From Planctomycetia bacterium (lineage in GTDB: Bacteria; Planctomycetota; Planctomycetia; Pirellulales; JALHLM01), in assembly GCA_034440135.1 (NCBI GenBank), contig JAWXBP010000181.1:1-64000 (forward strand): 64,000 bases of DNA. The letters are read 5' to 3'. Position 1 is the first letter of the stretch. Each line of letters opens with the position of its first letter. Below, piece after piece: positions 10,568-40,595 of the stretch. Below the pieces are notes generated by a model, which was not told the origin of the DNA, did no database searches, and worked only from the letters and a program-made list of their open reading frames with translations. The position numbers and the translations under genes were made by a program.

Positions 10568-10633
10568 AAGCCCAGGGAAGGCCCTAGAAGATTTTTGCCG
10601 ATGGAACAATCATCGGAGGCCTTCCCTGGGCTT
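10568..10633. repeat. REP-like palindromic element, copy 1 (arms AAGCCCAGGGAAGGCC / GGCCTTCCCTGGGCTT)
   Basis: 16-bp perfect terminal inverted arms around a variable 34-bp loop containing an inner hairpin (CCGATG...CATCGG). Lies 31 bp upstream of the RAYT gene. Confidence 0.75.
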
Positions 10634-10663
10634 AACCGCGAGCGCCGCAATAACGGTGATTTG

Positions 10664-11209
10664 ATGAACGTTGACGACCGCGTCTGGTATCACGTCATAG
10701 TCACCACTTATGGCGCTTGGCTATACGGCGACGCTCGCGGTTTTCGTACGCGCCATCATCGCCAACACATAGATGGCGATTACAAGAATCCGCCGACCGA
10801 CGACTATTCGGAAATCGAACTCCGCAGCCGAGAATCCCTTGAGCAAGATGCGGTTTCGCTTACGCCCTATTGGCAACCACTTGTCGGCAATGCGCTCTAT
10901 GCCGAATTCACTCGGCTCGGCGCTTTCATGTCGGCAATCGCCGTAGCCATGCAGCATGTGCATTTGCTCGCGAAGATGCCGTCTGGTTGCCAGCGGCACT
11001 GGCCAGGTCGAGCGAAGCGTAAAGTAACGCTTGTCTTGCGACAGCAGGGCTGGCTGGGCAAGCTCTGGGAAGTGCGCAGTAAAGCGATCCCCATACGAGA
11101 TGTCTCCCACTACGAAAACGCACTTCGCTACATATTGGCGCACGCCGAACACGGGGCTTGGACGAAACAATGGACCGCCGAGCCGGAACGAATAAATCGT
11201 GATTGTTGA
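10664..11209 (+). CDS. REP-associated tyrosine transposase (RAYT; IS200/IS605-like HuH transposase)
   Basis: N-terminal WYHVIVTTYGAWLYGDARGF and HuH motif MQHVHLLAK. Candidate catalytic Tyr region HYENALRYILAH. ~181 aa. Flanked on both sides by REP copies. The ORF-table start 10364 is an extension across the REP. Confidence 0.7.
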   Translation: MNVDDRVWYHVIVTTYGAWLYGDARGFRTRHHRQHIDGDYKNPPTDDYSEIELRSRESLEQDAVSLTPYWQPLVGNALYAEFTRLGAFMSAIAVAMQHVHLLAKMPSGCQRHWPGRAKRKVTLVLRQQGWLGKLWEVRSKAIPIRDVSHYENALRYILAHAEHGAWTKQWTAEPERINRDC

Positions 11210-11229
11210 GCGCGACATCGCGCAAGAAA

Positions 11230-11295
11230 AAGCCCAGGGAAGGCCCTCGGAGACTTCTCCATTGGCAAAAGTCTTCGGAGGCCTTCCCTGAGCTT
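11230..11295. repeat. REP-like palindromic element, copy 2
   Basis: AAGCCCAGGGAAGGCC ... GGCCTTCCCTGAGCTT (one mismatch). Lies 21 bp downstream of the RAYT stop, between convergent genes. Confidence 0.75.
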
Positions 11296-39570: not shown

Positions 39571-39759
39571 GCACATTCCCAGAAAAGGCGGTCGCGATCG
39601 GGTCGGCCCACAGAGTATATCGCACACATTAGAAGTTCGTACGCGGGAGCTTGCTCGTCGGGCATCGTGGGAGTTAACATAGGCGCTTCAGCCAAGATGC
39701 CCACAGGCTGATCCCCGCCGGACCTTTCTCCCACCGATTTACCTCCCCGGAGTGCATCC

Positions 39760-40500
39760 ATGCGCCGCCCCGTTTCCTGTTGGTTGTTGGCCTTGCTGGC
39801 TTGTCTCAGTGTCGTTTGCCCGTCGCCTGTTTCCGCCGCCGAGGCGCCGGCGCACGACGCCGTGACGGCCGTGCCGCGCGAGGAAGATTGGTGGACTGAA
39901 CGTCAGGAATTGATCAACAGCCGCACCAAGGAACAGGTCGACCTGTTGTTCATCGGCGACTCGATCACCCATGGCTGGGAAGGGGACGGCAAGGATGTTT
40001 GGGCGAAGTATTTTGCCCCCCGCCACGCGATGAACGCCGGCATCGGCGGCGATCGCACGCAGCATGTGCTGTGGCGTTTGCAAAACGGCAACCTGGAAGG
40101 GATCCAGCCGAAGTTGGCCGTCCTAATGATCGGCACCAACAACTCCAACGGCGAAGACAACACCGCCACGGAAATCGCCGACGGCATCAAGGCGATCGTC
40201 ACGGAACTGCGGACGAAGACGCCGGAGACCAAGGTGCTGGTACTCGCCATCTTCCCGCGCGGCGACAAGCCGAATCCGCAACGCGACAAGATTTCGGAAG
40301 TCAACAAGCAGGTCGCGGCCTGGGATCAGGTTGACGGCAAGAACGTGATCTACTTCGATTTCGGCGACAAGTTCCTGGCCGCCGACGGCTCGTTGCCGGC
40401 CGACATCATGCCGGACTTCCTGCATCTCAGCCCCAAGGGGTATGAGATTTGGGCCGAAGCAATCGAGCCGCAATTAGCGGAGATCGTCGGGCCCAAGTAA
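39760..40500 (+). CDS. secreted SGNH/GDSL-family hydrolase
   Basis: Signal peptide. LLFIGDSITHGW (GDS block) and MIGTNN block. Confidence 0.7.
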   Translation: MRRPVSCWLLALLACLSVVCPSPVSAAEAPAHDAVTAVPREEDWWTERQELINSRTKEQVDLLFIGDSITHGWEGDGKDVWAKYFAPRHAMNAGIGGDRTQHVLWRLQNGNLEGIQPKLAVLMIGTNNSNGEDNTATEIADGIKAIVTELRTKTPETKVLVLAIFPRGDKPNPQRDKISEVNKQVAAWDQVDGKNVIYFDFGDKFLAADGSLPADIMPDFLHLSPKGYEIWAEAIEPQLAEIVGPK

Positions 40501-40530
40501 GTAAGACATTGAAGAGTCGAACAGCGCGTC

Positions 40531-40595
40531 AAGCCCAGGGAAGGCCACAACAGACGTTGGCGATCGCCAAGTCTACGAGGGCTTTCCCTGGGCTT
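40531..40595. repeat. REP-like palindromic element, copy 6 (slightly degenerate right arm GGGCTTTCCCTGGGCTT)
   Basis: AAGCCCAGGGAAGGCC left arm. Between convergent genes, 30 bp after the hydrolase stop. Confidence 0.7.

What the first reader, a model, noticed from the sequence alone, without database searches (positions are those of the whole stretch)
10568..40595. Dispersed REP-like family: six copies at intergenic gene ends within 30 kb
Copies at 10568, 11230, 15203, 15892, 16563 and 40531. Each is 64-66 bp, with conserved 16-nt terminal inverted arms and a variable ~34-nt centre that itself contains a small hairpin. All are intergenic, mostly 15-30 bp after stop codons or between convergent genes. 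That is about one copy per 10 kb, so the genome probably carries several hundred. The conserved arms with variable loops look like a structured RNA or protein-recognition element, not a simple terminator. None is followed by a T-tract.
Basis: seen in the sequence. Interest (0 to 1): 0.55.

Follow-up and report, generated by a model that had tools for sequence, protein, structure and literature searches.

The report
REP repeats beside their RAYT gene
Six copies of a 65-base hairpin-forming repeat sit between genes. Two of them bracket a small gene for the type of single-strand-DNA enzyme known to spread such repeats, so this is a planctomycete version of the familiar bacterial REP/RAYT system, not a new kind of element.

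Summary
Six 65-66 nt palindromic elements lie at the stated coordinates, with near-invariant 16-nt arms and a variable 33-34 nt centre; chance expectation is 0. All six are intergenic.

This ORF has an HUH motif and a catalytic Tyr. Its predicted fold best matches the E. coli REP-associated tyrosine transposase bound to a REP hairpin (4ER8).

In 86 loci carrying homologues (42-100% identity), 81 have a CCC...GGG hairpin next to the gene, against 1.2% of shuffled flanks. These hairpins share the base AAGCCC...GGGCTT, and their upper stems differ by compensatory changes. Most relatives carry a 24-30 nt hairpin. The window's lineage carries an apically expanded 65-nt form.

There is no target-site duplication. 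The gene is under purifying selection (dN/dS 0.17) and sits beside the ribonucleotide reductase gene in four genomes.

Verdict: a REP/RAYT system belonging to a divergent Planctomycetota clade that falls below the Pfam and NCBIfam cut-offs.

All six copies have a T-rich tail on one strand, and in five it lies on the strand of the gene that ends just upstream. Related genomes carry tens of copies, not hundreds.

The parts
10568..10633 (+). REP copy 1 (66 nt), 30 nt upstream of the RAYT-like start codon. Its polarity matches the gene (the centre begins CTAG.. and ends ..CGGA).
   Evidence: The same copy is found at the same place in L059, L149 and L151.
10664..11209 (+). RAYT-like HUH/Y1 gene, 181 aa. 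It has the HUH motif QHVHLL (H98, H100), the catalytic-Tyr motif RYILAH (Y156), and a strongly conserved N-terminal block YGAWLYGDxRGFRTRHHxxHxxGDYKxPP.
   Evidence: NCBIfam REP_Tyr_transpos gives E 0.011, below the cut-off; 18 of 36 homologues hit it. The family alignment shows the invariant residues. A family profile hits ISDra2 TnpA with the HUH motif aligned. The AF2 model has pLDDT 87.5, and the top Foldseek hit is 4er8_A. dN/dS is 0.17.
11230..11295 (+). REP copy 2 (66 nt), 20 nt after the RAYT-like stop codon and 32 nt from the stop of the convergent dioxygenase gene. It has a T-rich tail (TTTTTCTT) on the - strand, which is the dioxygenase strand.
15203..15268 (-). REP copy 3 (66 nt), 29 nt after the stop of ORF 12273-15173. 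It is absent from the same intergenic region in L144, L146 and L147.
15892..15956 (+). REP copy 4 (65 nt), 28 nt after the rsfS stop and followed by a run of six T. L148 has no element after rsfS.
16563..16627 (-). REP copy 5 (65 nt), 15 nt after the stop of ORF 16092-16547 and 120 nt before lipA. It is the most stable hairpin of the six (-51.5 kcal/mol).
40531..40595 (-). REP copy 6 (65 nt), between the convergent GDSL-lipase and PQQ-propeller genes. An orthologous copy is present in the related MAG locus L051.

Best explanation
The six elements are REP-type (repetitive extragenic palindrome) sequences. They are non-autonomous hairpin-forming repeats, and their cognate enzyme is the HUH/Tyr single-strand-DNA transposase homologue (RAYT-like) encoded at 10664-11209 between copies 1 and 2.

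Shown here:
- The protein has the Y1-transposase fold and catalytic residues.
- The gene is flanked by the repeat on both sides, both here and across its family.
- The same repeat is dispersed in intergenic DNA of this genome and of related genomes.
- The stem evolves by compensatory changes.
- There is no target-site duplication.
- The gene is conserved, stays at one chromosomal locus, and is under purifying selection.

Inferred from E. coli TnpA-REP and the IS608/ISDra2 TnpA proteins: the protein binds the base of the hairpin (the conserved AAGCCC...GGGCTT part) when the DNA is single-stranded. It then cuts and rejoins nearby through Tyr156 and the His98/His100 metal site. This spreads and homogenises the copies. 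The apical 33 nt is not read by the protein and is free to drift as long as it still pairs.

Secondary role, inferred with lower confidence (about 0.4): once transcribed, copies lying 15-45 nt after a stop codon form hairpins of -40 to -51 kcal/mol. Where a U-rich tail follows on the strand of the gene ending just upstream, as in 5 of the 6 window copies, they act as intrinsic terminators or 3'-end protectors.
For: Protein:
- H98, H100 and Y156 are invariant in 36 homologues.
- 18 of 36 homologues match NCBIfam REP_Tyr_transpos and 15 of 36 match Pfam Y1_Tnp, all below threshold.
- The family profile aligns its HUH motif to ISDra2 TnpA.
- The AF2 model (pLDDT 87.5) has 4er8_A, RAYT bound to a REP hairpin, as its best PDB match (E 2.5e-5). 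The next 29 hits are all IS200/IS605 TnpA structures.

Association between gene and hairpin:
- The same two flanking elements occur in L059 (84% identity), L149 (65%) and L151 (56%), all downstream of the ribonucleotide reductase gene.
- Of 86 homologue loci, 52 have a CCC...GGG hairpin with a perfect stem of at least 8 bp within 250 nt on both sides, and 81 have one on at least one side. The figure for shuffled flanks is 1.2%, and the density elsewhere on the same contigs is 1 per 9.8 kb.

Structure:
- Upper-stem pairs covary across genomes. Examples are CG 68 / GC 39 / UA 5 and AU 67 / GC 44.
- Sister lineages carry arm variants that differ by compensatory pairs: GGGAAGGCC/GGCCTTCCC, GGGCAGGCC/GGCCTGCCC and GGGATGGCC/GGCCATCCC.

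Dispersal: 58 loci in three Pirellulales MAGs. At least 64 of 66 elements are intergenic.

Constraint: the orthologous copy 6 compared with L051 keeps 31 of 32 arm bases and 26 of 33 centre bases, while the adjacent spacers are diverged and carry indels.

Other points: there is no TSD. dN/dS is 0.17. The protein has no homologue on plasmids or phages. T-rich tails track gene ends.
Against:
- The protein scores far below the curated family cut-offs (15.6 against 80 bits for NF047646; no Pfam hit for the window protein).
- There is no GTAG or CGTC tag, which defines the two described REP super-families.
- At 65 nt the element is longer than a classical 20-40 nt REP.
- The gene's copy number per genome could not be counted.
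- The arm conservation measured on scan-derived copies (97%) is inflated, because the scan required one exact arm.
- The covariation table was built from hairpins selected for 8 perfect pairs.
- The copy number in the source genome is unknown.
Confidence: 0.85

Rival explanations
1. The unit from copy 1 through the gene to copy 2 (728 bp) is an autonomous IS200/IS605-type insertion sequence. On this view the solo copies are its deletion derivatives (palindrome-associated transposable elements), and the system is not domesticated.
For: The unit is the size of IS200. The protein folds like IS200/IS605 TnpA, and 7 of 36 homologues weakly hit NCBIfam transpos_IS200. The gene has atypical codon usage, with GC3 of 0.60 against 0.74-0.84 in its neighbours. 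Homologues in more distant genomes sit in different contexts.
Against: The gene sits at the same locus, downstream of the ribonucleotide reductase gene, in four genomes whose proteins are only 56-84% identical, which points to long vertical residence. Only one copy is present in the window and in each fetched locus. The protein clusters are seen on only 1-3 contigs each. The two flanking hairpins are the same sequence in the same polarity, unlike the distinct left and right ends of IS200/IS605. dN/dS is 0.17. No copy was found on plasmids or phages.
Confidence: 0.07
2. The elements are ordinary Rho-independent terminators or 3'-UTR stabilising hairpins that happen to share sequence. On this view they owe nothing to the neighbouring gene.
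For: All six window copies lie 15-128 nt after a stop codon. All six have a T-rich tail on one strand, and in 5 of 6 that strand is the one on which a gene ends just upstream. Across 66 copies, T-rich tails are enriched where a gene ends (19 of 45 against 12 of 87, p = 4.5e-4). The hairpins are very stable.
Against: Terminators do not need identical 16-nt arms in unrelated operons and across species. In the wider set, 38 of 66 copies have no T-rich tail on either strand, and 12 of 49 lie between divergent gene starts. The consensus terminator scan did not flag the whole elements. This view also does not explain the roughly 30-fold enrichment next to the HUH/Tyr gene family.
Confidence: 0.04
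3. The elements are MITEs, non-autonomous derivatives of a DDE transposon that are mobilised through their 16-bp terminal inverted repeats.
For: They have terminal inverted repeats, are small and are dispersed in intergenic DNA.
Against: There is no target-site duplication of 2-6 bp beyond chance (3, 0, 0, 0 and 0 of 53 copies). No larger element with these ends occurs in the window or the loci. The entire element is a hairpin whose stem covaries. The adjacent enzyme is HUH/Tyr, not DDE.
Confidence: 0.02
4. The elements are double-stranded palindromic binding sites for a dimeric DNA-binding protein, such as a regulator or nucleoid protein.
For: The arms are perfect palindromes, and many short forms in relatives are fully symmetric, for example GCCCAGGGACGGCCGTCCCTGGGC. 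Neither strand folds better than the other.
Against: No regulator is consistently adjacent; the consistent neighbour is an ssDNA-type enzyme. The spacing between arms ranges from 2 to about 35 nt across the family while pairing is maintained, which suits a hairpin better than a fixed dimer footprint. The long form has a real polarity: the first centre position is C in 50 of 54 copies, opposite T or A.
Confidence: 0.02

Closest known systems
REP/RAYT systems ('REPtrons') of Enterobacteria and Pseudomonas (E. coli TnpA-REP, PDB 4ER8; REPINs of P. fluorescens)
   Same: A single-locus HUH/Y1 gene is flanked by the same extragenic palindrome that is dispersed around the chromosome. There is no TSD, the stem changes by compensation, and copies sit mostly just after genes. 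The predicted fold's best match is 4ER8.
   Different: There is no 5' GTAG-type tag. The conserved determinant is the stem base AAGCCC...GGGCTT. The protein is below the NCBIfam and Pfam cut-offs and has different motifs (QHVH; Y-I/L-L-x-H instead of YIHxNP). It also has a highly conserved N-terminal block. The window's form is one 65-nt hairpin with a free apical domain, not a doublet of two self-folding REPs.
TIRtrons / TIRYTs (Di Nocera et al. 2013, PMC3733652)
   Same: These are RAYT-like genes flanked by untagged inverted repeats. Some of those repeats are self-complementary and form moderately abundant families. This is the closest published description of the architecture.
   Different: The published TIR examples share a GGGGWSAS motif or are mutually unrelated. 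None of the sequences searched in that paper contains CCCAGGG or CCCTGGG. No planctomycete example of this family is described there.
Class 3 TnpA-Y1 of Planctomycetes/Acidobacteria (Quentin et al. 2018, PMC6006769)
   Same: The proteins are about 178 aa with extended N-terminal conservation. [quoted passage not shown]
   Different: Class 3 motifs are NHVH and YV[VI]xEQ. Its hairpins read CCGAGCCGCGACCGTAAGGGAGCGGA with a CnGA foot. None of these features is found here, so this is a different family.
IS200/IS605 TnpA with subterminal hairpins (IS608, ISDra2)
   Same: The catalytic fold and the logic of hairpin recognition on ssDNA are shared.
   Different: Those elements are multi-copy mobile units with distinct left and right ends. 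Here the gene is stable at one locus, and the hairpins, not the gene, are what is dispersed.
Intrinsic terminators
   Same: A GC-rich hairpin lies soon after a stop codon, with a T-rich tail on the gene's strand in 5 of 6 window copies.
   Different: The elements share a 16-nt arm sequence across loci and species, many copies have no T tail, and they are linked to an HUH/Tyr gene.

Membership tests
REP/RAYT system (REPtron) | The protein has the HUH motif and a catalytic Tyr on a Y1-transposase fold | tested here: met
   H98, H100 and Y156 are invariant in 36 homologues. The HUH motif aligns to ISDra2 TnpA. The top Foldseek hit is 4er8_A, followed by 29 IS200/IS605 TnpA chains.
REP/RAYT system (REPtron) | The gene is flanked on both sides by the repeat | tested here: met
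   This holds in the window and in L059, L149, L150 and L151. Of 86 homologue loci, 52 are flanked on both sides and 81 on at least one side, against 1.2% of shuffled flanks.
REP/RAYT system (REPtron) | The same repeat is dispersed in many extragenic copies in the genome | tested here: met
   There are four further copies in the window and 58 loci in three MAGs. At least 64 of 66 copies are intergenic. The copy number in the source genome itself is unknown.
REP/RAYT system (REPtron) | The gene is single-copy and vertically inherited (domesticated), unlike an IS | tested here: inconclusive
   The gene sits at the same locus next to the ribonucleotide reductase gene in four genomes with 56-84% protein identity. 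dN/dS is 0.17. There is one copy per locus. No whole genome could be scanned for further copies.
REP/RAYT system (REPtron) | The REP is a 20-40 nt imperfect palindrome with a conserved 5' GTAG (or CGTC) tag | tested here: not met
   The window elements are 65-66 nt with no GTAG or CGTC tag. Relatives do have 24-30 nt hairpins, but their conserved part is AAG/CTT continuing the stem.
REP/RAYT system (REPtron) | The protein reaches the curated family score (NCBIfam NF047646, Pfam PF01797) | tested here: not met
   The score is 15.6 bits against a cut-off of 80. There is no Pfam hit for the window protein. Homologues hit only below threshold.
REP/RAYT system (REPtron) | The protein binds and cleaves the REP hairpin as ssDNA | not testable with these tools
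   This needs purified protein and oligonucleotide assays.
MITE (DDE-transposon derivative) | Terminal inverted repeats plus a target-site duplication | tested here: not met
   Inverted repeats are present, but flanking k-mers of 2-6 nt match no more than chance in 53 copies.
Intrinsic terminator | A GC-rich hairpin immediately followed by a U-tract on the transcribed strand | tested here: inconclusive
   This holds in 5 of 6 window copies on the strand of the gene ending upstream, and T-rich tails are enriched at gene ends. However, 38 of 66 copies lack a T-rich tail, and the consensus scan did not call the whole elements.
Class 3 TnpA-Y1 (Quentin 2018) | Motifs NHVH and YV[VI]xEQ; hairpins with a CnGA foot of the type CCGAGCCGCGACC... 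| tested here: not met
   The family here has QHVH and Y[IL][LIM]xH and hairpins of the form AAGCCCAGGGA..TCCCTGGGCTT. Compare the published table.
Integron attC site | R''/L''-L'/R' sites with a GTTRRRY core, extrahelical bases, cassette ORFs and an IntI gene nearby | tested here: not met
   The arms contain no GTT core and pair perfectly. The genes between copies are housekeeping genes (rsfS, then lipA). Presence of IntI was not searched for exhaustively.

The most novel reading that the evidence does not exclude
The gene and its hairpins may be a previously unclassified class of HUH/Y1 'REPtron' that is widespread in Planctomycetota: 626 clusters at 50% identity score E <= 1e-10. In this class the protein-recognition base of the hairpin (AAGCCC...GGGCTT) has stayed fixed through more than 50% protein divergence. 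The upper stem, in contrast, changes by compensatory pairs that are shared by all copies seen in a genome: A:T, C:G and T:A variants occur in sister lineages. The apex can expand into a free 33-nt domain. If so, this would be a natural system for studying how a domesticated transposase and its repeat population co-evolve and how dispersed copies are homogenised.
Probability: 0.4. Interest if true: 0.55.

Novelty: new variant of a known kind. Interest (0 to 1): 0.42.

Why it matters
REP/RAYT systems have been characterised almost entirely in Proteobacteria. Here a clade invisible to the Pfam and NCBIfam cut-offs turns out to be common in Planctomycetota. Its hairpin has an unusually conserved base and no GTAG tag.

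For annotation, this explains a class of 'hypothetical' 180-aa genes and the strong hairpins beside them. It also warns that ORF callers extend genes across these repeats, as with ORF 10364-11209, which runs through copy 1.

For biology, the family offers compensatory arm variants across sister lineages, presence/absence differences between related genomes, and possible recruitment as terminators. All of these can be tested. None of it changes how such systems are thought to work.

Tried and rejected
- **Rfam.** Nothing at gathering thresholds. With permissive E-values only sub-threshold miRNA-precursor models match, which reflects any long hairpin.
- **Single-sequence searches.** Pfam and the PDB sequence search gave nothing useful for the window protein alone.
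- **RNAalifold on 54 oriented copies.** It recovered only the arms, because indels in the centre prevent a common register. I therefore tested centre self-pairing copy by copy. The mean z was -1.27, and 41% of copies fell below -1.64.
- **Strand-specific folding (G:U pairs).** No difference between strands, p = 0.51, so I dropped the structured-RNA reading.
- **Target-site duplication.** None, so I dropped the MITE reading.
- **Origin of the 65-nt form as a doublet.** I looked for evidence that it derives from an inverted doublet of two short hairpins, as next to homologues in L089 and L101. The inner halves of the centre do not resemble the arms, so apical expansion is the simpler account. 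L090 carries exactly the window arms with no centre.
- **Empty-site analysis.** Copy 3 is absent in L144, L146 and L147, and no element follows rsfS in L148. The spacers are too diverged to define insertion boundaries.
- **Orthology of the copies after the dioxygenase and rsfS genes in L146.** This could not be settled, because centre identity (about 52%) is no higher than between random family members.
- **The protein partner of the C:G-arm lineage.** Not found with the remaining look-ups.
- **Plasmid and phage collections.** No homologue of the protein.
- **Integron attC and uptake-sequence readings.** Considered and rejected on sequence grounds and because of the gene association.
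Full report
**Observation.** The full pattern matches copies 1, 3 and 5 without mismatch, against an expectation of 0.00 in shuffles. The 16-mer arm with up to three mismatches gives 14 hits. Twelve of these are the two arms of the six elements, against 0.6 expected. Copies 2, 4 and 6 each have one mismatch in the right arm. The elements are 65 or 66 nt long. Each folds into a long hairpin of -39.7 to -51.5 kcal/mol, with z-scores of -6.0 to -10.6 against shuffles, and most centres add 3-14 further pairs. 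All six lie between ORFs, 15-128 nt after the stop of a + strand gene. Copies 2 and 6 lie between convergent genes.

**The missed gene.** Copies 1 and 2 bracket an ORF at 10664-11209. The window protein has no Pfam hit and only a weak NCBIfam hit to 'REP-associated tyrosine transposase' (E 0.011; 15.6 bits against a cut-off of 80). It does belong to a large family found mainly in Pirellulales and Gemmataceae, which is mostly annotated 'hypothetical'.

In an alignment of 36 members, the HUH histidines (H98, H100 in QHVHLL) and a tyrosine (Y156 in RYILAH) are invariant. So is an N-terminal block, YGAWLxGDxRGFRTRHHxxHxxGDYKxPP. Half of the members hit the RAYT model and 15 of 36 hit Pfam Y1_Tnp, all below threshold. 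A profile of the family aligns its HUH and Tyr regions to ISDra2 TnpA.

An AlphaFold model built from the alignment is confident (pLDDT 87.5, pTM 0.83). Its best match among solved structures is 4ER8, the E. coli REP-associated tyrosine transposase bound to a REP hairpin (E 2.5e-5). The next 29 hits are all IS200/IS605 transposases. An exhaustive profile search finds 1552 cluster representatives at E <= 1e-3 and 626 at E <= 1e-10.

**Gene-repeat association.**
- A contig with an 84%-identical protein is syntenic with the window (ribonucleotide reductase, then the gene, then the dioxygenase). It carries the same two flanking elements in the same polarity.
- Contigs with 65% and 56% identical proteins also lie just downstream of the reductase gene and are flanked in the same way.
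- Homologues at 53-60% identity in unrelated contexts are flanked by hairpins that share the base AAGCCCAGGGA...TCCCTGGGCTT. Some of these are only 28 nt long.
- I fetched 80 more homologue loci from metagenomes. Of 86 loci in all, with some redundancy, 52 have a perfect-stem CCC...GGG hairpin within 250 nt on both sides and 81 have one on at least one side.
- Only 1.2% of shuffled flanks contain such a hairpin. More than 600 nt away from the gene, the density on the same contigs is one per 9.8 kb.

The usual form is a 24-30 nt hairpin such as AAGCCCAGGGACGGCCGTCCCTGGGCTT. L090 has exactly the window's arms with nothing between them. The window type is therefore best read as an apical expansion of an ancestral short REP. 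This long form is shared by the sub-lineage whose proteins are roughly 55-100% identical (L059, L060, L066, L149, L150, L151).

**Structure is what is conserved.** Across 112 distinct short hairpins, the base CCC/GGG and the A:T pair above it are nearly fixed. The next four pairs switch between complementary types, for example CG 68 / GC 39 / UA 5 and AU 67 / GC 44. These hairpins were selected for eight perfect pairs, so that table is descriptive and not a test.

An unbiased case comes from contigs found through the neighbouring rsfS gene. In a sister lineage (77-89% nucleotide identity to the window), every copy seen has arms AAGCCCAGGGCAGGCC/GGCCTGCCCTGGGCTT. This is a compensatory A:T to C:G change. 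One copy there carries a further private compensatory pair. The lineage of L151 has the T:A version.

The one clearly orthologous pair is window copy 6 and L051. It keeps 31 of 32 arm bases and 26 of 33 centre bases, while the adjacent spacers are diverged and carry indels.

Within the family, pairwise identity is 97% in the arms and 47% in the centres. The arm figure is inflated, because the genome scan required one exact arm.

The element has a real polarity. The first centre base is C in 50 of 54 copies, opposite T or A. The two strands nevertheless fold equally well (p = 0.51), so nothing points to a strand-specific RNA.

**Distribution and context.** A scan of one genome per species found the element in only three Pirellulales MAGs, at about 45, 8 and 6 loci. 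The source genome is not among them; its closest relative there is 85-89% identical in DNA. Tens of copies per genome is therefore the supported order of magnitude. The window's density reflects clustering beside the gene: five copies lie within 6 kb.

A crude GC3-based gene call puts at least 64 of 66 copies in intergenic DNA. The eight apparent exceptions are 5' ORF over-extensions or ambiguous cases. Neighbour arrangements are co-directional in 26 cases, convergent in 11 and divergent in 12 of 49. When a gene end is adjacent, the element typically begins 15-45 nt after the stop. There is no target-site duplication.

Related genomes differ in occupancy. Copy 3 is missing in L144, L146 and L147, and L148 has nothing after rsfS.

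The gene itself is under purifying selection (dN/dS 0.17 against L059). It has atypical codon usage (GC3 0.60) and no relatives on plasmids or phages.

**Terminator question.** The statement that no copy is followed by a T-tract is wrong once the arm's own TT and both strands are counted. All six copies have at least 5 T in 8 on one strand, and in five of them that is the strand of the gene ending just upstream. Over 66 copies, T-rich tails occur at 19 of 45 strand-sides where a gene ends within 150 nt, against 12 of 87 elsewhere (odds ratio 4.6, p = 4.5e-4). A subset therefore probably doubles as intrinsic terminators. Most copies lack such tails, and a quarter lie between divergent genes. 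This is at most a secondary use.

**Comparison with the literature.** Di Nocera et al. 2013 describe GTAG- and CGTC-tagged REPs, 'REPtrons', and 'TIRtrons', in which RAYT-like genes are flanked by untagged and sometimes self-complementary repeats. Rhodopirellula baltica is mentioned only for GTAG repeats. Quentin et al. 2018 define a 'class 3' of about 178-aa HUH/Y proteins, mainly from Planctomycetes, with atypical flanking hairpins. Its motifs (NHVH, YV[VI]xEQ) and hairpins (CCGAGCCGCGACC...) differ from those here. No paper in the library links RAYT to this planctomycete family. I file the finding as working like a REP/RAYT system. It is a divergent variant and not a certified member, because two defining features fail: the tag and the curated score.

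**Verdict.** This is a real, non-random repeat family of a well-understood kind. It is a new variant in a phylum where the kind is poorly described. Confidence in the REP/RAYT explanation is 0.85. Confidence that some copies also terminate transcription is about 0.4.

Noticed in passing
window 272-362, 12299-12389, 31738-31828: A second, unrelated palindromic repeat family: three 91-nt inverted doublets. Each has the form [GGGTGC CACTGGCGG cttgt CCGCCAGTG], about 33 nt of variable spacer, then [CACTGGCGG acaag CCGCCAGTG GCACCC]. Each arm is itself a tagged 9-bp hairpin, closely resembling the REP GTGTGCCACTGGCTCCGCCAGTG listed for a Planctomyces brasiliensis RAYT (subclass 2.2) in Quentin 2018 Table S1. 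This is a canonical REPIN-type doublet. No matching RAYT gene was looked for in the window.
   Followed up: partly
window 10454-10512: A hairpin with perfect 15-nt arms (GCCTGGGCTGCTCGT / ACGAGCAGCCCAGGC, 29-nt loop) lies just after the ribonucleotide reductase stop codon. It is conserved in L059, L149 and L151. In L149 and L151 its left arm is the last codons of the gene itself. In the window and L059 the gene's 3' end appears to have been duplicated (GGGCTGTTCGTAG, then GGGCTGCTCGTAA). It may be a terminator or regulatory stem.
   Followed up: partly
window 10364-11209 and 12273-15173: Mechanical ORF calls run across the repeats. ORF 10364-11209 reads through REP copy 1 before the real ATG at 10664. 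ORF 12273-15173 begins upstream of the 91-nt doublet at 12299-12389, although a lipoprotein-like signal (…LAGQSGC) suggests a start near 12440. Gene callers may over-extend starts at such repeats.
   Followed up: partly
window 10664-11209: The RAYT-like gene has GC3 of 0.60, against 0.74-0.84 for all neighbouring genes, and the same is true in L059 and L149 (0.59, 0.55). It also evolves faster than the adjacent reductase gene (dN 0.089 against 0.017).
   Followed up: yes
L146 880-1000 (compare window 10440-11330): In a sister lineage the dioxygenase gene is followed by a single REP with no RAYT-like gene, and the gene on the other side is not the reductase. A synteny breakpoint therefore coincides with the REP/RAYT site.
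   Followed up: partly
L151 1400-1620: Downstream of the 56%-identical homologue, two adjacent elements have mismatched arm variants (left GGGATGGCC with right GGCCTTCCC, then left GGGAAGGCC with right GGCCATCCC). It looks as if halves of two variants had been exchanged or nested.
   Followed up: no
L089 6557-6622, L101 342-407, L095 2207-2272, L130 396-463: Next to several homologues the short hairpins occur as inverted doublets of about 66 nt. These can fold either as two small hairpins or as one long one, as REPINs do. Their total size is the same as the window's single long element.
   Followed up: partly
window 42573-42668: A long imperfect inverted repeat (43-nt arms, 77% complementary, 10 nt apart), upstream of or within ORF 42426-43205. 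It is unrelated to the finding.
   Followed up: no
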